A stretch of DNA of 8,647 nt, filler included, from Cystobasidiomycetes sp. EMM_F5 (taxonomy: Eukaryota), in NCBI GenBank assembly GCA_051047955.1. It is 2 parts of 2 records of this genome, joined end to end, with 100 filler letters (N's around TTAATTAATTAA, not from the genome) between each part and the next. Parts side by side here need not be neighbours in the genome. Positions count along the whole stretch, not along the records: positions 4,428 to 8,647 come from JBPGPT010000098.1; 1 more part is not named here. One strand, written 5' to 3'. The notes under the pieces were generated by a model, which was not told the DNA's origin, did no database searches, and saw nothing but the letters and a program-made list of their open reading frames with translations. This document shows positions 1 to 8,647 of this stretch, piece after piece. The translations under genes and the position numbers were made by a program. Positions within the stretch are counted from its first letter, which is position 1; the number at the start of each line of letters is the position of its first letter.

Positions 1-23
1 CTTTTTTAGAGAATCTAAAAAGA

Positions 24-55
24 AGAAGTAATCGAAATGAATCTGAAAAAGTAAA
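24..55 (+). repeat. Copy of the palindrome arm found upstream of nad4, abutting the nad2 ATG
   Basis: 30-55 (AATCGAAATGAATCTGAAAAAGTAAA) is identical to 2616-2641; 24-55 matches 2610-2641 with one mismatch. Confidence 0.9.
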
Positions 56-1723
56 ATGCTTATAATTGGGCTTATTTCATTATTATTAGCCATTGGCCTG
101 GGTGTAACCCGGTCCAATACGCATGATTCTTCTACTATCCCCTCCACATTATTAATGCGGATGACCTCCATTATTCTTATTTTTGGTGCCCTATTGTCTT
201 TTAATGCATTATATGTACAAGCAATTGGATCCGGTTTAGGGTTATATAGTGGTTTATTCCATGTAACTAGCGTTACACAAGCGATAGAAATCTTTATTTT
301 TGCTGTGGGTGCTTTCATTTTATTGCCTGAACAAGCTATTCCATATTTGACTTTGCAAGTTCCTGCGAATGAAAAAATAAAAATCCAGAATGGGTTAGTG
401 GTTGACAATTTTTCAACCAATAAAAAAGAACCAAGTAAGAGTGTGCAAGCAGAATACCCAATAATCATTTTATTCACCACGATTGGAGCATCCTTTTTAA
501 TTTCAAGTTCCGACTTAGTTTCAATATACTTATCCATTGAACTACAAAGTTTTGCAGTCTACATTTTAGCAGCCATTAACCGAAACTCAGAGTCAGCAAC
601 ATCAGCGGGACTAAAGTATTTTTTATTGGGGGCTTTATCTTCTGCTCTAATCTTACTGGGTTCTAGTCTTATTTATGCTTATACAGGGCTAACTAGCTTT
701 GAAGGTATTTATATGCTTCAAAATACACATTCACTTGCGAACAATACTGAAGAAACGATAACGGTTGCTTCTGGTGTAGTCATTATTGGAGTCGGATTTT
801 TATTCAAAGTTGCGGCTGCGCCCTTCCACAGTTGAGCTCCAGATGTCTATGACGGAGTGCCTACGATAGTGACAACCTGGTTAACCGTAATGCCTAAAAT
901 TTCGATTTTTGTCTTTTTACTAAGTGCTGACCTGTTAAATTTTGACTTGCTTGACGTTGCAATAACCGGAGATACAAATGATGTATGAAAAACTTTACTT
1001 TTAACCACCTCTCTATTGTCCTTAGTCATTGGAACCGTGGTAGGATTAGCTCAGTATAGATTAAAACGTTTACTAGCGTATTCAACCATTTCTCACGTTG
1101 GGTTTTTATTACTAGCACTCTGTGTAAATAGTGAAAAGTCAACTATAAGTTTTTTATTCTACCTAATGCAATACTCGATTACTAACTTAAATGCCTTTTT
1201 AGTTGTTTTGGCTTTAGGCTATATTAGTTATCAACTGCCTACGATTCGTTTATCTTGAGGCCCTTCAACAACCTCAAGAGATATTACTCTAATCTCTCAA
1301 TTAAAAGGGGAGTTACACACAAACCCTGTGCTAAGTATAAGCTTAGCTATTTGTTTATTTTCAATGGCAGGTATTCCACCTCTATTGGGATTTTTTGCCA
1401 AATACTTAGTTTTATACTCAGCCATCGAAAACGGATACTATTTTTTAGCTTTAATTGGTATTTTAGCCAGTGTAGTAAGTGCAGTATACTATTTACGGAT
1501 TATTCGGGTTGTATTTATAAACTATGAACAACGGAAGGAGGCAGAAAGGTATAATTCTACGTCGTTCCAAAAGGAATTTGAAAACAAAGATACTAGTCGT
1601 ATTACAAACACGCATAGCTACCTAATTGCCGTGTTTACCCTATTTATTACAATGTTTATTTTATCTCCGTCCTTATTTTTAAATTGCAGTAATCTACTTG
1701 CATTGTCTTTATTCACAGCATAA
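56..1723 (+). CDS. nad2: NADH dehydrogenase subunit 2 (mitochondrial, code 4), 555 aa
   Basis: ORF pieces 56..835, 1016..1258 and 1328..1723 share one frame and are separated only by in-frame TGA codons (833, 986, 1256), including the conserved [14 protein letters not shown]rp. Motifs: [53 protein letters not shown]. Stop TAA at 1721-1723. Confidence 0.97.
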
Positions 1724-2109
1724 TGACAGTTACAGTATTATTAATTTTTGTTCCTGTATTAGCCATTATTTTACTTATGTTGAATGTACTACTTGCTGTG
1801 CATCGGCCAGACACAGAAAAAGTTACACCATATGAGTGCGGATTTAATCCTATTTACAATCAAGTACGAGCACCTTTTGCCGTGCAATACTACCTGGTTG
1901 GTATTTTATTTTTGATTTTTGACCTTGAAATTGCCGTTTTTTACCCTTTAGCAGTAACCTTGTACCAAGTAAGTAGTTACGGGTTTTGAATTGGGATAAT
2001 TTTTTTACTTTTATTAACCGTAGGGTTTGTCTATGAGTTGCAAAAAGGAGCCTTGTACTTTACTGATCATAGATCTGAAGTCTCAAAGACCGTTATTAAT
2101 CGACCCTAA
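1723..2109 (+). CDS. nad3: NADH dehydrogenase subunit 3 (mitochondrial, code 4), 128 aa
   Basis: Motifs [25 protein letters not shown] and LTVGFVYEL. Reads through TGA (Trp) at 1987-1989 to TAA at 2107-2109. The ATG overlaps the nad2 stop (TAATG). Confidence 0.97.
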
Positions 2110-2154
2110 GAGAACTCCGGGCCTCCTACCCCCTTTGTTCTTTTTATTGGTTTG

Positions 2155-2269
2155 TGATTAACCTTTAGGTTAATCAGGTTGTGGCTGAGTTTGTTGCTTT
2201 ATAAAGCTTCTGAATATTTATAAAAAAAAATATTCAGAAGCTTGATAACTTGCGGAGGTTTTATCAAGC
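2155..2269. repeat. Cluster of short palindromes downstream of nad3
   Basis: TGATTAACCT/AGGTTAATCA (2155-2164/2167-2176); AAGCTTCTGAATATTT/AAATATTCAGAAGCTT (2204-2219/2228-2243); GCTTGATAA/TTATCAAGC (2240-2248/2261-2269). Confidence 0.85.
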
Positions 2270-2385
2270 GCCTGATTTTTGTGGCACCAAACAAGTACCT
2301 TAAAAATTTTAATGTGCATTTGTGAAAATTTCCCCATTTTAAGGACGCTTATTTATTATTTGAGTTTTCAGGGCTCTAGTTTTTC

Positions 2386-2503
2386 GTTGCTGAGTTTGTT
2401 GAATATGTTGCTGAGTTTGTTGAATAAACTTCAACAATAACCTCAGCAAATTCAACAAAGGGGCCCGTTCTTTATTAATCATAAATAATGCCCCTGAAAA
2501 AGG
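2386..2503. repeat. Dispersed intergenic repeat (GCTGAGTTTGTTG family), left copy
   Basis: Tandem 20-mer GTTGCTGAGTTTGTTGAATA at 2386-2405 and 2407-2426. 2405-2478 is the reverse complement of 4245-4327 apart from a 9-bp indel; 2487-2503 matches the reverse complement of 4175-4190 with a 1-bp indel. Confidence 0.9.
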
Positions 2504-2563
2504 CCCTGAAAATGGATTCTGATCCCTGAATCTTTGAAATATTCGAAACATCAGGATGTTTCG

Positions 2564-2642
2564 ATTTACTTTTTCAGATTCATTTCGATTCCTTCTCAAG
2601 CTCTGCTTGAGAAGGAATCGAAATGAATCTGAAAAAGTAAAT
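2564..2642. repeat. Perfect 38-bp inverted repeat with 3-nt loop upstream of nad4
   Basis: 2564-2601 (ATTTACTTTTTCAGATTCATTTCGATTCCTTCTCAAGC) is the exact reverse complement of 2605-2642; loop TCT. Confidence 0.95.
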
Positions 2643-2668
2643 GTAGAGGCCAAAAAAATATTTATACA

Positions 2669-4150
2669 TTGCTAACATCATTATTACTTATTCCAATTTT
2701 AGGGGTATTAGCCCTAAGTTTTGTGTCAGAAAATTCAAAATCTAGAATTAAACAAATTGCCTTGTTTGCAACCTTACTCAACTTTATTGTGTCACTGGTA
2801 CTATGAGGAGAGTTTGATAGCAATTCAAGCCAATACCAATTTACAACTGAATTTAATGAAGTAAACTTTTGTCATTTACATATTGGGGTCGACGGGTTAT
2901 CTCTATACTATGTATTACTAACAACCTTTACCATGCCTATCTGTTTGTTAGCCAGTTGAGAAAATGTCCAAGTTTTTGGCGAATCAACTAAGGCAAATAA
3001 CCAATTAAAATATTTTATAATGGCCTTTTTAATGCTAGAGTCACTATTAATTGCCCTATTTGTAGTATTAGACCTATTACTGTTTTATGTTTTTTTTGAG
3101 TCGGTGTTAATTCCCTTGTTCTTAGTTGTAGGTATCTGAGGTGCAACCGAAACCCGGATTCGTGCTAGCTTTTTACTATTCCTATATACACTGTTTGGGT
3201 CTTTATTTATGTTACTAGCCTTTTTAGTAATTATTTACAACGTGGGTACATCAGATTTACAAGTGATTTCAATGGCAGACATCAGTTTTGAAAGTCAAAA
3301 ATATTTATGATTAGCCATTTTTTTAAGCTTTGCCATTAAAACACCTTTAGTTCCTTTCCATTTGTGATTAATTAAAGCTCATGTTGAAGCACCGGTTGCA
3401 GGGAGTATGGTATTAGCGGGGCTTGTTTTAAAACTAGCTACATACGGTATTCTTCGTATTCTTATTCCTATTCTCCCTGAGGCAACAGCGTACTTTACTC
3501 CTTTAGCTTATACCTTCGGGATTGTATCTATTATTTATGCCTCATTATCAGCTTTACGACAAATCGATTTTAAATGTTTAGTTGCATATAGTTCTATTGC
3601 TCATATGGGGGTTGTTATTTTAGGTTTATTCAGTAATACTATTCAAGGTATTGAAGGGGCTATTGTATTATCAATTGGCCACGGTTTTGTTTCACCGGCA
3701 CTTTTCTTCATTGTCGGATCCGTTCTTTATGATAGATATCATACTCGGGTAATTAGATATTATAGAGGGTTGGTTTTATATATGCCAGTTGCAATGTTGT
3801 TATTTTTCTTATTTACTCTAGCCAACATGGGAACACCGGGTATTTCTGTCAACTGAGTAGGGGAATTATTAGCATTAACCGGAGCATACCAATTAAACCC
3901 TATTGCAACGCTTGTAGGGGCTACATCTATTGTATTATCTGCAGGGTATTCCATCTGACTCTTTAACAGACTCGCTTTTGGGGCCTACAGTCCTTATTTG
4001 TCTGTATCAACCCAAAGCTCCCATGATTTATCTCGGCGAGAATACCTAATTTTATTTAGTTTACTAATTCCAACCATTGTATTTGCACTATTTCCAAATT
4101 TATTGTTAGATAATTTACATTACAGTGTATCAACTCTTATTTATACTTAA
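2669..4150 (+). CDS. nad4: NADH dehydrogenase subunit 4 (mitochondrial, code 4), about 493 aa, probable TTG start
   Basis: Single open frame in code 4 from (L/M)LTSLLLIPILG through [72 protein letters not shown] and LYDRYHTR to TAA at 4148-4150. The start position is inferred from the usual N-terminus. Confidence 0.95.
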
Positions 4151-4174
4151 AATAAACGATAATCAATGAAAAGA

Positions 4175-4327
4175 CCTTTTCAGGGGCATTCTTTATTAAG
4201 CATCTGAATATTTATAAAATAAATATTCACACGCCAGAATAAGCTTAATAAAGAACGGGCCCCTTTGCTGAGTTTGTTGAATTTGCTGAGGTTATTGTTG
4301 AAGTTTATTCAACAAACTCAGCAACAT
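4175..4327. repeat. Dispersed intergenic repeat, right (inverted) copy with nested hairpins; runs into the contig end
   Basis: Inverted copy of 2405-2503. Internal stems: 4189-4201/4243-4255 (13 bp), 4205-4215/4219-4229 (11 bp, related to the 2204-2243 hairpin) and 4265-4282/4307-4324 (18 bp). Confidence 0.9.
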
Positions 4328-4427
4328 NNNNNNNNNNNNNNNNNNNNNNNNNNNNNNNNNNNNNNNNNNNNTTAATTAATTAANNNNNNNNNNNNNNNNN
4401 NNNNNNNNNNNNNNNNNNNNNNNNNNN
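4328..4427. other. Artificial contig-joining spacer (six-frame stop linker)
   Basis: Exactly 44 N + TTAATTAATTAA + 44 N = 100 bp; TTAATTAATTAA gives stops in all six frames. Confidence 0.97.
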
Positions 4428-4510
4428 ATTCTATGATGACGTAATGTTCTCGAATGTTCCAGAACGTGCCAGAGACTGACGTGAGGGCTCCTTGAGCTCA
4501 GTTCGTGACA
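4428..4510. mobile_element. Probable terminus of a second LTR element nested in the RT region
   Basis: RT similarity stops right after MPFGLTNAP. On the minus strand the foreign sequence begins TGTCACG (4510-4504), a typical Ty3/Gypsy LTR terminus, and the contig breaks 83 bp later. Confidence 0.65.
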
Positions 4511-5741
4511 CCGGAGCATTCGTTAAGCCGAACGGCATGACCATACACTCAAAGTGGCCGTAGCGTGTACGAAATGCGGTTTTCCATTCGTCGCCTGCTC
4601 TGACACGGACTAGGTTATAAGCTCCTCGAAGGTCAAGCTTAGTGAAGATTTTGGCTCGTCGTAACCTGTCGAGAGCTTCAGGGATGAGTGGTAGTGGATA
4701 TCTGTTTTTGATAGTGACGTTATTCAAAGCGCGATAATCTACACACAATCTCAAAGATCCATCCTTCTTTTTGACGAAAAGGATCGGAGATCCAGCAGGA
4801 GAGCGTGATGCCCGAATGAAGCCTTTGGCCAGGTTCTCTTCGAGCCATTCAGATAGAGCCTTAAGTTCCAATTCGGACAAGGAATAGAGAGGGCCGTAGG
4901 GTGGAGTTTTGCCTTCCTCTAGCTCGATACTGAGGTCATAAGGCCTATGAGGCGGCAACTTGTCGGCCTTCGTTTTGGAGAAAGCGGCCAGCTTGTCATG
5001 GTATTCGGCAGGGACCGTCTTTTTCAGGATACTGACGTAGTCTTTTGGGTCCGGCAGATCTTCAGCTGTAGACGGTGATGTAAAGGCACCATCTGTGACT
5101 GCACCGAGTACCATGTCGTCGCCTTCGTGATAAAAGAGGGTTCCGCCTGAAGCGCCTTCCTCGGCAATATCGGATCCCATTTGATCTGCGTCGGCAAAAG
5201 CGATGTCAAGGGAACTAGCTGTTGGAACGAAGGGGAGTCCTCGAAGCTCAATTCGAGAGTCGTGACCCTTCGGCGGGATCGTGAGCACTTTGCGCTTCCA
5301 GTCAATTTCCGGGTTGATAGCATGCAACCAGGGCATGCCTAGGATGATAGGGTACGTGCCGAGCTTGGTCACGTCTAATGACATGGGGTAGGGAGTCCCA
5401 CCAGTCGTCATTTTGAGATTACAGGTGTGTGTGATGGCGCCTGATTCTATAGGCCTACCATCAATCACATACAGAGCGGATGGCACCTTTTTCGGGGTCA
5501 TGGACAGCTGATATCGGTAAACAAATTGCTGATCTACGAAGTCTGAGGTTGCGCCACTATCGAGTAGCGCATGAGCAGGCAGGGCTACTACTGAACCGTC
5601 TGGCAAGAACTGATGTAGCTTGATGGGTATGACAAAAGGCGTCGAACTGTTGTCGTTGGTTCCACTGACGTTGGAATTTCCGAATCGCCCTTCTTGCGTG
5701 TCCGAGGCAGGGCGTATTGCCGTTGGACCGCTCAGTTTTCC
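4511..5741 (-). pseudogene. pol: pol (aspartic protease + N-terminal reverse transcriptase), interrupted before YxDD
   Basis: Protease motifs [11 protein letters not shown] and [10 protein letters not shown] motifs [41 protein letters not shown] and [24 protein letters not shown]. The frame is open from the slippery site at 5741; the TTG start at 5606 in the ORF track is not a true start. Confidence 0.92.
5686..5741 (-). promoter_or_regulatory. Programmed -1 ribosomal frameshift signal (G GAA AAC + predicted pseudoknot)
   Basis: Heptamer GGAAAAC (5741-5735) lies directly before the gag TGA, and the -1 frame is open into the protease. After a 6-nt spacer come stems GUCC/GGAC and GGCA/UGCC; loop CGCCC is complementary to downstream GGGCG (5690-5686). 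Confidence 0.85.
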
Positions 5742-6718
5742 GACTTGACGTTAGTAATGCGTCCGGTCTTGTCGATTGGGGCTGTAAGCGTTGCTTGGAT
5801 GCGAGCTTTGGGTCTTTTGGCGGGGCAATCGTTAACCCGGTGACCTGCTTTGCCGCAGTATAGGCATAGATTGTTTTGAATTCTATGCTGTTTCTCGGTC
5901 GGTGTGAGAGGCTTGAATCTTCGCTCGGTTGAGGCGTCAATATCCATGGTCATGGGCATTGAAACCTGCCGGACATGCATTTGTGGTTTGAAGTCGGGAC
6001 GCGGCGGTACTCGGCGTTGATTATTGTTGTGGTGATGTGTTTTGTGCTGAGGGGGTTTTACAAAACCTCCCCTAGCTTCCTGCTTCCTCTCGTACAACCG
6101 GTTGTCGATCTTGACGCACAGGTTCTGGAAGTCTTGGAAAGTGTCTGGTTCATCGACGACTAGTGCCAAAGCATCCTTGACTTCGGGTTTGAGGCCGTCG
6201 TAGAAATACGTCTTAAGGCCTGCCTCATTGTTGTCCAAATATTGGGAGATGCTGTCGAACTCCGTTCGAAAATTTGCGCACGACGTTGTCTGTTTGAGGG
6301 CGCGCAGTCGTTTGGTCATGGTGTGCGAACGATCGGGGTCTCCCAGAGCACGGATCATTTCTCTTGCGAAATACTCGAAGTCAAGCATCATTGCGTCTCC
6401 AGAGCGATGGAGGTACGGCTCGATCCAAGAGAAAGCGCGTCCCCGAAGGTATGTTGCCACGAAGGAGATTTTAGCAGCATCATTGATGAACAGGTGCTGA
6501 TTGCCTGCTATGAATAGCCTGACTTGCGCAATGAAGTCGGTGCAAGCAGCTTTGTCCTTGCCGTCATACTCGTCGGGCTTGTTAAACAGTTTTCCTAATC
6601 CCGAACTATAGTTGCTGTTTGCAGCAACATTGGCGGCTTCGGCGGCCTGCTGTGCCATGAGCATGGCGTTGGTGGCAGCGTTGGCGGCCGTAGTGGCTTG
6701 TCCGAGAGACTCTTCCAT
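5732..6718 (-). CDS. gag: Gag (capsid + CCHC zinc knuckle), 328 aa
   Basis: First in-frame ATG at 6718 after an upstream TAA (6820-6818). Capsid-like KPDEYDGKD...[17 protein letters not shown] and [11 protein letters not shown]; knuckle [14 protein letters not shown] (CX2CX4HX4C); stop TGA (standard code). Confidence 0.93.
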
Positions 6719-6765
6719 TGCGAGCAAGCGTGGGTAAATAGAGTACTTGCTGAAGGCAAATTCCG

Positions 6766-6777
6766 ACTTCTGTTCTA
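6766..6777 (-). promoter_or_regulatory. Self-priming primer binding site
   Basis: AGAACAGAAGT (6776-6766) lies 3 nt inside the LTR end at 6780 and is the exact complement of ACTTCTGTTCT (6994-6984) in the LTR. There is no TGG-type tRNA PBS. Confidence 0.8.
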
Positions 6778-6779
6778 GT

Positions 6780-7040
6780 TGTCGGACACCAACCTTGACT
6801 GGGTAGGTGGATGGGGTTTACAGACTTTGCCGAATTAAGTACGACGTCGCTGGGTTTGCAGATGGCGGCCGGAGTGTTGCCTTGGAGTGAAGGACCCAAC
6901 AGCGTGTCGAGGTGCACAGGGGACAAGAGTAACACTTAGTCGAGGCTAAGGTTGAGGGAAAGGTATTTTTATATTGACAAAACAGAACAGAAGTGAAGAA
7001 GAAAGAAGAGGATCTATCCGTACAACGATTTTAAACCTTT
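6780..7040 (-). repeat. 5' LTR, promoter-R-U5 portion (LTR continues to higher coordinates)
   Basis: Ends in CCGACA at 6780. 6780-6832 aligns without gaps to 8595-8647 (40/53 identical), starting at the same terminal TG. TATA-like TTTAAAA (7035-7029), a pyrimidine-rich tract and an AATATAAAAA poly(A)-like signal near 6975-6966. Confidence 0.75.
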
Positions 7041-7336
7041 GCTGGCTGGCGCTAGTCGTGCTGACTCGACCACGCTAATCTAAACTGCATTTCTAATTTT
7101 GAAATTCCATATTTACAAGCCTGCGCTAGCGAGGGCGCGCTAGTGTCGATGGTGCTTCGATGGCGCTAGCCCAAAGCCAGCCACGCGCACTGATAACACT
7201 TTTATTTTGATAAGACTCGTCCGAGTTCTGCATTTCGAAATTCGCTAGGCTCCCGCCCATCTCCTTTCTCTTCTTGTCTTTCCACACATCACTTGGATAT
7301 TCCAATAACTCGAATCCGTCACACGTCGCTATCGTC

Positions 7337-7855
7337 ATGTCGCTTAACAACTTTGCGGAGTCCGTCCGAGCTTTCGCCAATCACGGCAAGTGCAACATGG
7401 CCGGATGTCTGTTCTGCGACTATCCCCCACAGGGTATTGCTGTCTTCCTCTCATAGCAGTAGCACCAGGCTGACATACCATTAGGCCTGTCTCCCATTGA
7501 TCTGTGCACTCCAAGCAGCAATGGCTCTTCGTTTGGTTTTGCGGACCATCCTTCATTTTCGCTCGTCACGGGATCCCCTGGTAGCACACCATATCCCTTT
7601 GCTTATCAAGCGCCTTCGCCTGCCTACGTTTCCCCCTCGCCTCAAGGATACATCGATCCTTCCAACATTTTCATTCCTCCTCAGTCGCCGTCGGGATGGA
7701 CTATGCCTTCCCCGGTTGCCGACAACTCCGGTTGGGACATTCCTTCCCCGGCCGGAACCACTGCCTCGATTGGCCAGCAGATGGATCAGGCACAGGTAGA
7801 TTTTGTTAGGAATGTCTTTGCTTTTGTAATTCGTATTTTGGAAATTCGCCTGTAG
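7337..7855 (+). CDS. Predicted two-exon gene (7337-7433, 7485-7855), 155-aa protein of unknown function, antisense to gag
   Basis: 51-nt intron 7434-7484 with GTATTG donor, GCTGAC branch site (7469-7474) and TAG acceptor. Splicing removes an in-frame TAG (7454-7456) and joins a stop-free 371-nt exon. Pyrimidine-rich leader and T/GT-rich 3' UTR-like tail. Confidence 0.65.
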
Positions 7856-8470
7856 CTTTGAGTAGCTACTTTTGTAATTAGAATTACGCGGGGCTATAGG
7901 TGTCTTTCTCTTTTGTTAATAGATCGGGGGTTCGGGTCTCGTTGTATTTATATTTTAATGACTTTTTTAGAGGGGCAATACATTTTATTTTGGTGACAAT
8001 CGTGACATTAGCTCGTCACTAATTACAACTACAAGTACATCAACGAGGACTATACACAACAAGCTACATACAACAATGTACAAACTACTTACAAGAAACG
8101 ACTTACAAAACTACTACTACTTATCATTACTGCGATGTATTTGATACTACTGAGATCTTCTTACCCAATGAACTTCACTCCGTACTTGAGTCGAGGATGT
8201 GATAACCGTGTGTAGGCAACTTGTAGTTGTGTGTACTTTATAATACAACACGAATGATCGATCTTTTTGTGGCGAAAATGACATAGTCAATGAGAAACGG
8301 CCGGCTCGACTCTTTGCAAGTGATCGAGTTTTTGGTGTGCGTGACAGTGGGAAAAAAACCCGGCTATCATGCGAGGTTAGCATTACAGTGCAGGGCAAAG
8401 AGCCCGGGGGGGAATTTTGCAGTGAAACAGCCGCTCAAGTCTGGATGCTCGCAAGAATAACCTTGACAAG

Positions 8471-8544
8471 AACTCAGCAACAACCTGATTAATCTAAACA
8501 AACCAATAAAAAAACAATAATCAGGCGCTGCGAATAAATCGAAA
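8471..8544 (-). repeat. Mitochondrial-type intergenic repeat sequence within the retrotransposon contig
   Basis: 8471-8517 matches the reverse complement of about 2135-2191 (2 substitutions, one 9-bp and one 1-bp indel). AATCAGGCGCT (8519-8529) is the reverse complement of 2267-2277; TAAATCGAAA (8535-8544) is the reverse complement of 2559-2568. Confidence 0.85.
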
Positions 8545-8580
8545 GGTATCTAAAAATAAAAAAATAATCCGGATATCTTC

Positions 8581-8647
8581 TGTCGGGCGCCAACTGTCGG
8601 GCGCCAACCTTGATTGGGTAGGCAAGTAGTGTTTACGGACGCTGTCG
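8581..8647 (-). mobile_element. U5 end of a second, related LTR (3' or solo LTR), with a duplicated 14-bp terminus; continues past the window
   Basis: 8595-8647 is 75% identical to 6780-6832 without gaps. TGTCGGGCGCCAAC occurs twice in tandem (8581-8594, 8595-8608). No PBS like that at 6766-6776 follows it. Confidence 0.8.

What the first reader, a model, noticed from the sequence alone, without database searches (positions are those of the whole stretch)
7337..7855. Hidden antisense, intron-containing gene upstream of gag, possibly carried inside the LTR
Seen: the ORF track misses this gene. Removing a 51-nt GT..GCTGAC..TAG intron gives MSLNNFAESVRAFANHGKCNMAGCLFCDYPPQGLSPIDLCTPSSNGSSFGFADHPSFSLVTGSPGSTPYPFAYQAPSPAYVSPSPQGYIDPSNIFIPPQSPSGWTMPSPVADNSGWDIPSPAGTTASIGQQMDQAQVDFVRNVFAFVIRILEIRL. 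It has an N-terminal H-x2-C-x4-C-x2-C cluster, a Ser/Pro-rich middle with repeated SGWxxPSP, and a hydrophobic or amphipathic C-terminus. The best outer LTR candidates (minus-strand TGTCACG at 8007 or 8346, mirroring the GACA end at 6780) both lie beyond the gene. Known: antisense accessory ORFs occur in some plant Ty3/Gypsy elements (Retand, Grande), and an antisense intron is not removed from the element's genomic RNA. Inference: a fungal Ty3/Gypsy may carry a spliced accessory gene (possible zinc-binding regulator or anti-silencing factor) in U3 of a 1.2-1.6 kb LTR. I do not recognise the protein.
Basis: partly seen in the sequence, partly recalled or inferred. Interest (0 to 1): 0.85.

Follow-up and report, generated by a model that had tools for sequence, protein, structure and literature searches.

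The report
Orphan spliced ORF beside a retrotransposon
A small one-intron open reading frame with no relatives anywhere lies next to a fungal Ty3/gypsy retrotransposon; nothing shows that it rides inside the element's terminal repeat, and it may be a young host gene or no gene at all.

Summary
The sequence observation holds. It is antisense to a truncated chromovirus-type Ty3/gypsy element, with gag at 6718-5735 and PR-RT at 5750-4431.

Statistical support is modest. A 130-codon stop-free frame is common in shuffles (90 of 500). An ATG-initiated CDS of at least 155 codons with at most one canonical intron is rarer (12 of 400 and 6 of 400).

No relative was found. The exhaustive search of 1.84 billion representatives returned only the window's own 50-aa ORF and one spurious repeat protein. 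Pfam, PDB, Atlas, metagenome and viral contigs gave nothing. AlphaFold2 on exon 2 predicts disorder plus one C-terminal helix.

LTR carriage could not be tested: no genome is held, no RNA run was listed, and the other LTR of this element lies off the contig. Strand composition changes near 7200, which hints at a roughly 420-bp LTR with the ORF outside it.

Antisense extra genes are already known in fungal Ty3/gypsy elements (brtn of Boty). Odds: orphan host gene 0.45, chance ORF 0.40, element-borne gene 0.12. Interest is low.

The parts
7337..7433 (+). Exon 1 of the candidate gene (32 codons plus the first base of a Gly codon); holds the H-x2-C-x4-C-x2-C cluster
   Evidence: Translation; no Pfam family and no PDB match
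7434..7484 (+). Candidate 51-nt intron: starts GTATTG, branch-like CTGAC 10 nt before the terminal TAG, two in-frame TAG stops
   Evidence: It is the only GT..CTRAC..YAG candidate with a GTA donor in 7000-8000. Splicing has not been observed: no RNA run was listed
7485..7855 (+). Exon 2 with the stop codon. Ser/Pro-rich, with two SGWxxPSP motifs from a 36-nt-spaced in-frame repeat (7691-7715 and 7727-7751). The last 20 codons lie in AT-rich sequence
   Evidence: AlphaFold2: pLDDT 45-58 over residues 1-94, helix at 95-120. No homologue
7200..7336 (+). Putative core promoter and 5' UTR: AT-rich TATA-like stretch at 7200-7214 and an 84%-pyrimidine tract at 7250-7292
   Evidence: The promoter reading is inference from the usual architecture of fungal promoters (recalled)
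7049..7169 (+). Cluster of four GCGCTAG motifs between the element's TATA box and the ORF. Candidate shared or bidirectional regulatory sites, or the U3 enhancer of the LTR
   Evidence: 4 matches, all in this stretch; 0 of 200 shuffles of the whole window reach 4 (mean 0.63)
6780..7198 (-). 5' LTR of the Ty3/gypsy element. The inner end at 6780 is firm. The outer end is unknown, and 7198 (minus-strand TGT..., giving 419 bp) is a guess. Minus-strand TATAAAAATA lies at 6973-6964
   Evidence: Inner end from the 75% match of 6780-6832 to 8595-8647. TATA. Composition switch near 7200
5735..6718 (-). gag (Ty3 capsid-like, CCHC zinc knuckle)
   Evidence: Pfam Ty3_capsid 9.4e-11, Retrotrans_gag 2.4e-10
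4431..5750 (-). Protease and the first part of reverse transcriptase, in the -1 frame relative to gag. Cut off by the start of the contig
   Evidence: Pfam RVP_2 2.2e-08, RVT_1 7e-15; frame offset; N-run positions; closest relatives are chromoviruses
8595..8647 (-). Inner end of a second, related LTR that runs off the window
   Evidence: 75% identity over 53 nt to 6780-6832; 78% over 46 nt

Best explanation
The ORF is most likely a lineage-specific (orphan) small host gene, or a very young gene, in unique DNA between two retrotransposon LTRs. It lies head-to-head with the 5' LTR of a chromovirus-type Ty3/gypsy element rather than inside it.

Proposed working, all of it inferred. Transcription starts on the + strand downstream of an AT-rich, TATA-like stretch (7200-7214) and a pyrimidine tract (7250-7292). 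One 51-nt intron is removed. The 155-aa product has a short His/Cys cluster at the N-terminus, about 95 disordered Ser/Pro-rich residues with two SGWxxPSP motifs, and one C-terminal amphipathic helix that could mediate self-association or peripheral membrane binding.

The only mechanistic tie to the element would be regulatory. The LTR's U3 side and its four GCGCTAG motifs lie 170-290 nt upstream of the ATG and could act in both directions.

Shown: the ORF, the splice-signal-like motifs, the orientation, the absence of relatives and the predicted disorder. Not shown: transcription, splicing, translation, copy number and any function.
For: The gene model reproduces exactly.

A CDS of this size with at most one canonical intron is uncommon in composition-matched shuffles: 12 of 400 and 6 of 400.

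The intron is the only GTA-donor candidate in 7000-8000, and it removes exactly the two stops that separate the ATG frame from the long frame.

+ strand pyrimidine content steps from 0.44 (6780-7198) to 0.60-0.66 (7200-7855), then back to 0.47 (7856-8594). GC skew changes sign near 7200. This fits a separate + strand transcription unit that starts where an ordinary-sized LTR would end.

The minus-strand TATA box at 6973-6964 sits 184 nt from the LTR's inner end. A roughly 420-bp LTR would therefore have a normal U3/R/U5 layout.

The two SGWxxPSP copies are 36 nt apart, so in frame. Outside their two variable codons they differ only at third codon positions, TCG/TCC and GGA/GGT.

The element's own RT has no relative above 63% identity with near-full coverage. 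The lineage is therefore poorly sampled, and a fast-evolving disordered protein could easily lack detectable relatives.
Against: No homologue was found in any search.

The stop-free frame alone is not unusual (90 of 500 shuffles). Three frames are open across the same stretch, which points to composition.

The donor GTATTG lacks the usual G at +5.

The last 20 codons lie in 35%-GC sequence that looks non-coding.

The outer end of the LTR was not determined, so the gene could still lie inside it.
Confidence: 0.45

Rival explanations
1. There is no gene. The ORF is a by-product of a pyrimidine-rich, low-complexity spacer (or LTR U3 sequence) in which stop codons are rare in several frames. The intron-like signals are coincidental.
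For: A stop-free run of at least 130 codons occurs in 90 of 500, 113 of 500 and 41 of 500 shuffles. Three of six frames are open for at least 100 codons here.

There is no relative among 1.84 billion representatives except the window's own 50-aa ORF and one spurious repeat protein.

The product is predicted almost wholly disordered.

The donor is suboptimal. The nuclear contig holds 17 GT..CTRAC..YAG candidates on its two strands, so such signals are not rare.

Against: The complete ATG-plus-intron CDS is reached by only 12 of 400 and 6 of 400 shuffles. The in-frame repeat has synonymous differences. The GC and pyrimidine island coincides with the ORF, and upstream and downstream sequence looks promoter-like and terminator-like.
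Confidence: 0.4
2. The gene is carried by the retrotransposon. Either it sits inside an unusually long LTR (at least 1.08 kb), or it is a brtn-like antisense accessory gene left from the 3' internal region of an upstream, largely deleted tandem copy that shares this LTR.
For: It is antisense to gag-pol and directly adjoins the LTR. Its 5' end faces the LTR, as with antisense genes that lie between pol and a 3' LTR.

A purine-rich 10-mer directly precedes the minus-strand TGT at 7198. A similar 21-25-nt stretch recurs at 7982-8006 (3 of 300 shuffles, but the pair was chosen post hoc).

A second related LTR end lies 1.8 kb away.

Antisense extra genes exist in fungal Ty3/gypsy elements: brtn. 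Unchecked notes from this scan report similar cases.
Against: No outer LTR end could be defined beyond the gene. The candidates share only 4 nt with the inner end.

Strand composition changes near 7200, not beyond the gene.

No pol, integrase or chromodomain remnant was found in six minus-strand open frames that lie between 7129 and 8549.

The sequences that follow the two LTR inner ends are not alike (110 of 300 shuffles score as well). This speaks against a tandem copy with its own primer-binding region.

The protein has no detectable relative, BRTN-like or otherwise.

An LTR over 1 kb is long for the fungal Ty3/gypsy LTRs I recall. The only length seen in a call is 258 bp for BcGypsy3.
Confidence: 0.12

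Closest known systems
[quoted passage not shown] 2011, Virology 417:248). The paper itself is not held. It is known here only through passages in PMC7264820, PMC8365987, PMC4227169 and PMC5987419
   Same: A fungal Ty3/gypsy element with a protein-coding ORF on the strand opposite to gag-pol. The product has no known family. It is absent from the standard genome annotation (PMC8365987 says brtn is not in the latest B05.10 annotation).
   Different: brtn lies inside the element, between pol and the 3' LTR, and is present in the element's copies. This ORF lies beyond the inner end of the 5' LTR, its copy number is unknown, and no sequence relative of any kind was found.
Antisense additional ORFs of plant Ty3/gypsy elements: maize Grande gene23, rice RIRE2, Silene Retand, Phaseolus PvRetro13 (review PMC7264820; abstract and passages seen)
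   Same: Antisense orientation, an own promoter, no database similarity and unknown function.
   Different: These lie between pol and the 3' LTR and are conserved across copies of a family. Neither property is shown here.
Retroviral genes that use LTR sequence. The HTLV antisense promoter in the 3' LTR is mentioned in PMC7264820. HBZ splicing and MMTV sag in U3 are recalled, not from a call
   Same: Would apply only if the ORF were inside the LTR: a coding or antisense unit that overlaps U3.
   Different: Those are vertebrate retroviruses with demonstrated transcripts and proteins. Here location inside the LTR is unsupported.
Orphan or de novo lineage-specific small genes of fungi (general knowledge)
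   Same: Short, one small intron, intrinsically disordered and low-complexity product, no homologues, next to transposable elements.
   Different: No expression or population data exist here to show that it is a gene.

Membership tests
brtn-like antisense accessory gene of fungal Ty3/gypsy elements | Lies inside the element, between pol and the 3' LTR | tested here: not met
   For the element in the window, the ORF (7337-7855) lies on the far side of the 5' LTR's inner end (6780), upstream of gag. The pol-to-3'-LTR part lies off the contig, below 4428.
brtn-like antisense accessory gene of fungal Ty3/gypsy elements | Antisense to gag-pol | tested here: met
   ORF on +; gag, PR and RT on -.
brtn-like antisense accessory gene of fungal Ty3/gypsy elements | Present in most copies of the element family | not testable with these tools
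   No genome is held.
brtn-like antisense accessory gene of fungal Ty3/gypsy elements | Sequence similarity to BRTN | tested here: inconclusive
   No relative among 1.84 billion representatives or in the word-indexed search. I could not verify that BRTN is in those libraries, and I did not have its sequence.
Gene carried within an LTR | Both ends of the LTR enclose the gene | tested here: inconclusive
   The inner end is at 6780. The outer end cannot be defined from one LTR. The composition switch near 7200 argues for an end before the gene. The best inverted-repeat match, 7714-7724, falls inside exon 2 between two copies of its own repeat and is probably chance.
Gene carried within an LTR | The same gene is present in the element's other LTR and in other copies | not testable with these tools
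   The 3' LTR lies beyond the contig start. The second, related LTR shows only 53 nt in the window. No genome is held.
Known zinc-binding domain (zinc knuckle, Zn2Cys6 and the like) | Match to a curated family profile or a solved structure | tested here: not met
   Pfam found no family for exon 1 at E up to 1. PDB gave no match at E up to 10. The H-x2-C-x4-C-x2-C spacing fits no family that I tested. Metal binding itself cannot be tested here.
Ty3/gypsy (chromovirus-type) LTR retrotransposon, for the neighbouring element | gag with Ty3-type capsid and CCHC knuckle, then aspartic protease, then RT on one strand, next to an LTR | tested here: met
   Pfam Ty3_capsid, Retrotrans_gag, weak zf-CCHC, RVP_2 and RVT_1. 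The closest proteins carry RT, RNase H, integrase and a chromodomain. The integrase and chromodomain of this copy are off the contig.

The most novel reading that the evidence does not exclude
A basidiomycete-type chromovirus carries, in or directly attached to its LTR, its own promoter-equipped, spliced antisense gene for a small disordered Cys/His-Ser/Pro protein. That would place an accessory gene at the 5'-LTR or U3 side, not between pol and the 3' LTR, and every new insertion would deliver one or two copies of it.
Probability: 0.1. Interest if true: 0.6.

Novelty: new member of a known kind. Interest (0 to 1): 0.2.

Why it matters
If real, this is one more unannotated orphan gene beside a transposable element. 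That is of local interest for annotating this genome and as a possible case of an LTR acting as a divergent promoter.

Only the less likely reading, a gene carried within or attached to the LTR, would add something to retrotransposon biology. Even then, antisense accessory genes are already documented in fungal and plant Ty3/gypsy elements.

The practical lesson is that an ORF-plus-intron model found by eye in a pyrimidine-rich stretch needs copy-number and RNA evidence before it is ranked high.

Tried and rejected

Sequencing runs: no RNA holder was listed. One coded DNA run (X1) holds a single 300-nt contig, 7102-7401, with 3 differing letters at depth 2.1. X2 and X3 hold only a 40-62-nt RT motif at under 90% likeness. 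The contig spans the guessed LTR end at 7198 but has no loose ends. It says nothing about boundaries, copy number or expression.

Protein searches for exon 2:
- word-indexed search: none
- exhaustive phmmer: 2 of 1.84 billion at E up to 0.001, namely the window's own 50-aa ORF and an 847-aa tandem-repeat protein at 24% identity that I regard as spurious
- Atlas: best score 0.77, below the lead threshold
- Pfam: only a sub-threshold HTH_Tnp_Mu_2 match, 16.5 bits against a cut-off of 20.5
- PDB: one match at E 0.74

tblastn-type scans: metagenome contigs none; viral contigs none for exon 2 or gag.

A scan of metagenome contigs for a 19-nt motif conserved between the two LTR ends gave 6 loci. All match only 20-21 nt, so they are chance hits.

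A synonymous-codon-preference test trained on gag/pol has no power. Gag and pol score only 0.01-0.02 against each other, and the six frames of exon 2 do not separate.

A purine/pyrimidine-collapsed comparison, meant to find mutated copies in 1-4327, gave scattered non-colinear hits. An apparent LTR-end match at about 897-948 did not hold up on alignment. That contig turned out to be mitochondrial.

A tandem-copy model would predict that the regions after the two LTR inner ends are alike. They are not (110 of 300 shuffles score as well).

Rfam and tRNA scans of the window found nothing.

Earlier-findings look-ups by place and by sequence found nothing.

A literature search for a fungal gene within an LTR (listing only) showed no such paper among the 12 listed.

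Full report
What the window is. Two runs of 44 N flank TTAATTAATTAA at 4328-4427. This is the kind of six-frame-stop linker used to join contigs (the reading of the linker is recalled, not from a call). The window is therefore two pieces.

Bases 1-4327 are 35% GC and encode NADH dehydrogenase subunits: Proton_antipo_M at 8.3e-38, 5.6e-21 and 1.2e-07, and Oxidored_q4 at 9.8e-21. That piece is mitochondrial DNA and irrelevant to the finding.

Bases 4428-8647 are a nuclear contig of about 50% GC. It begins inside the reverse transcriptase of a minus-strand LTR retrotransposon. Gag runs 6718-5735 (Ty3_capsid 9.4e-11, Retrotrans_gag 2.4e-10, weak CCHC knuckle). Protease and RT run 5750-4431 (RVP_2 2.2e-08, RVT_1 7e-15) in the -1 frame relative to gag. 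Its closest proteins are chromodomain-bearing Ty3/gypsy polyproteins. The best near-full-coverage hit is 63% identical, and the named ones at 48-57% come from Microbotryum, Ustilago, Tilletia and a Tremellales species. The lineage is therefore poorly sampled.

The LTR. The inner end of the 5' LTR is at 6780. Bases 6780-6832 match 8595-8647 at 75% (78% over 46 nt), so a second, related LTR runs off the right end of the window. The sequences that follow the two inner ends are not alike (110 of 300 shuffles score as well).

The outer end of the first LTR cannot be defined from one copy, for these reasons:
- The best 11-nt inverted match is at 7714-7724 with 2 mismatches. I estimate about 0.2 such matches by chance in 1.8 kb. 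It falls between the two copies of exon 2's own repeat, so it is very probably chance.

Three observations favour an ordinary LTR that ends near 7198, which would make it 419 bp:
- A minus-strand TATAAAAATA at 6973-6964 lies 184 nt from the inner end.
- + strand pyrimidine content is 0.44 over 6780-7198, 0.60-0.66 over 7200-7855 and 0.47 over 7856-8594.
- GC skew is positive through the element and the LTR stretch and turns negative near 7200.

These are hints, not proof.

The ORF. The product is 155 aa with H-x2-C-x4-C-x2-C at residues 16-27 and two SGWxxPSP motifs. S, P, G, T and A together make up 46% of residues.

Is it more than chance? The open frame alone is not. At least 130 stop-free codons appear in 90 of 500, 113 of 500 and 41 of 500 dinucleotide-preserving shuffles of 6780-8594, 7200-7900 and 7460-7860. 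Three frames are open for at least 100 codons over the same stretch.

The full model is rarer. An ATG-started CDS of at least 155 codons with at most one GT..CTRAC..YAG intron of 45-90 nt appears in 12 of 400 and 6 of 400 shuffles. The nuclear contig holds 17 such intron candidates on both strands, 5 of them with a GTA donor. The one at 7434-7484 is the only GTA-donor candidate in 7000-8000.

Further soft support:
- An AT-rich stretch at 7200-7214 and an 84%-pyrimidine tract at 7250-7292 lie upstream of the ATG.
- A T-rich, 36%-GC region follows the stop.
- The two SGWxxPSP copies are 36 nt apart and differ at third positions in the Ser and Gly codons.

Against a real gene:
- The donor departs from the usual fungal consensus at +5 and +6 (consensus recalled).
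- The last 20 codons lie in AT-rich sequence.
- A codon-preference test had no power.

Relatives and fold. There are no relatives. The word-indexed search of 5.8 billion clusters gave nothing for exon 2 or, among longer proteins, for exon 1. The exhaustive phmmer run over 1.84 billion representatives returned two proteins. One is a 50-aa ORF identical to residues 73-122 of the query, that is, this same DNA. The other is an 847-aa tandem-repeat protein at 24% identity, which I regard as spurious. Pfam, PDB and the Atlas gave nothing usable. Translated scans of metagenome and viral contigs gave nothing.

AlphaFold2 on exon 2 alone (single sequence) gave mean pLDDT 57.9. Residues 1-94 have no secondary structure, apart from one 3-residue helical turn, at pLDDT 45-58. 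One helix spans 95-120 at about 88. The spliced protein itself was not submitted, because joined sequences are not accepted. The N-terminal cluster was therefore never folded.

Expression and copy number. No RNA run was listed. One coded DNA run holds a 300-nt contig at 7102-7401 with three differing letters. This shows only that this stretch exists elsewhere.

What is known. Antisense additional ORFs between pol and the 3' LTR are reviewed for plant Ty3/gypsy elements such as Grande, RIRE2, Retand and PvRetro13. The same review names a fungal case, Boty of Botrytis cinerea and Sclerotinia sclerotiorum, with the gene brtn (PMC7264820, abstract and passages). PMC8365987 (passages) assigns brtn to BcGypsy1, notes that it is missing from the current B05.10 annotation, and mentions a 258-bp LTR for BcGypsy3. 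PMC4227169 and PMC5987419 (passages) mention brtn beside gag-pol and truncated Pol. The original paper is not held.

Unchecked notes of this scan list eight further fungal Ty3/gypsy elements with antisense intron-containing genes. Six are stated to lie between pol and the 3' LTR. I used these notes only as context.

The general idea is therefore not new for fungi. What would be new is a position in, or attached to, the 5'-LTR side. That position is exactly the part without evidence.

Verdict. Odds are orphan or young host gene head-to-head with the LTR 0.45, chance ORF in a pyrimidine-rich spacer 0.40, and element-borne gene (long LTR, or relic of a tandem copy) 0.12. Interest is 0.2.

Noticed in passing
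window 4328-4427: Two runs of 44 N flank TTAATTAATTAA. This looks like an artificial contig linker, so the window joins two unrelated contigs and the retrotransposon's truncation at 4431 is an assembly edge, not a biological break.
   Followed up: partly
window 1-4327: AT-rich (35% GC) mitochondrial DNA with NADH dehydrogenase subunit genes (Proton_antipo_M in three ORFs, Oxidored_q4 = nad3 at 1723-1986). It has long inverted repeats (2405-2459 with 4273-4327; 24-55 with 2565-2596). The ORFs look split under the code used, probably because of TGA=Trp or introns.
   Followed up: partly
window 8471-8570: A stretch of the nuclear contig just before the second LTR resembles the mitochondrial contig downstream of nad3, in reverse orientation: 8471-8517 matches 2191-2135 at 79% over 57 nt (E 1.6e-8), and 8551-8570 matches 2013-1994 at 90%. 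It may be a small mitochondrial-derived insert.
   Followed up: partly
window 7049-7169: Four copies of GCGCTAG, all on the + strand within 121 nt and one inside the palindrome CGCTAGCG (0 of 200 shuffles reach four). They lie between the element's TATA box and the ORF and are candidate transcription-factor sites.
   Followed up: partly
window 8581-8609: The first 14 nt of the second LTR's inner end (TGTCGGGCGCCAAC) are duplicated in tandem immediately outside it. This is unexplained.
   Followed up: no
window 7198-7222 and 7982-8006: A 21-25-nt direct repeat. On the minus strand it reads as an A-rich purine run followed by TGT, and it brackets the candidate gene unit. It scores above 297 of 300 shuffles, but the pair was chosen post hoc. 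It could be chance or a trace of a PPT-LTR-like junction.
   Followed up: partly
window 5732-5750: The gag and pol frames overlap by 19 nt, with pol in the -1 frame relative to gag. This is the usual frameshift layout.
   Followed up: no
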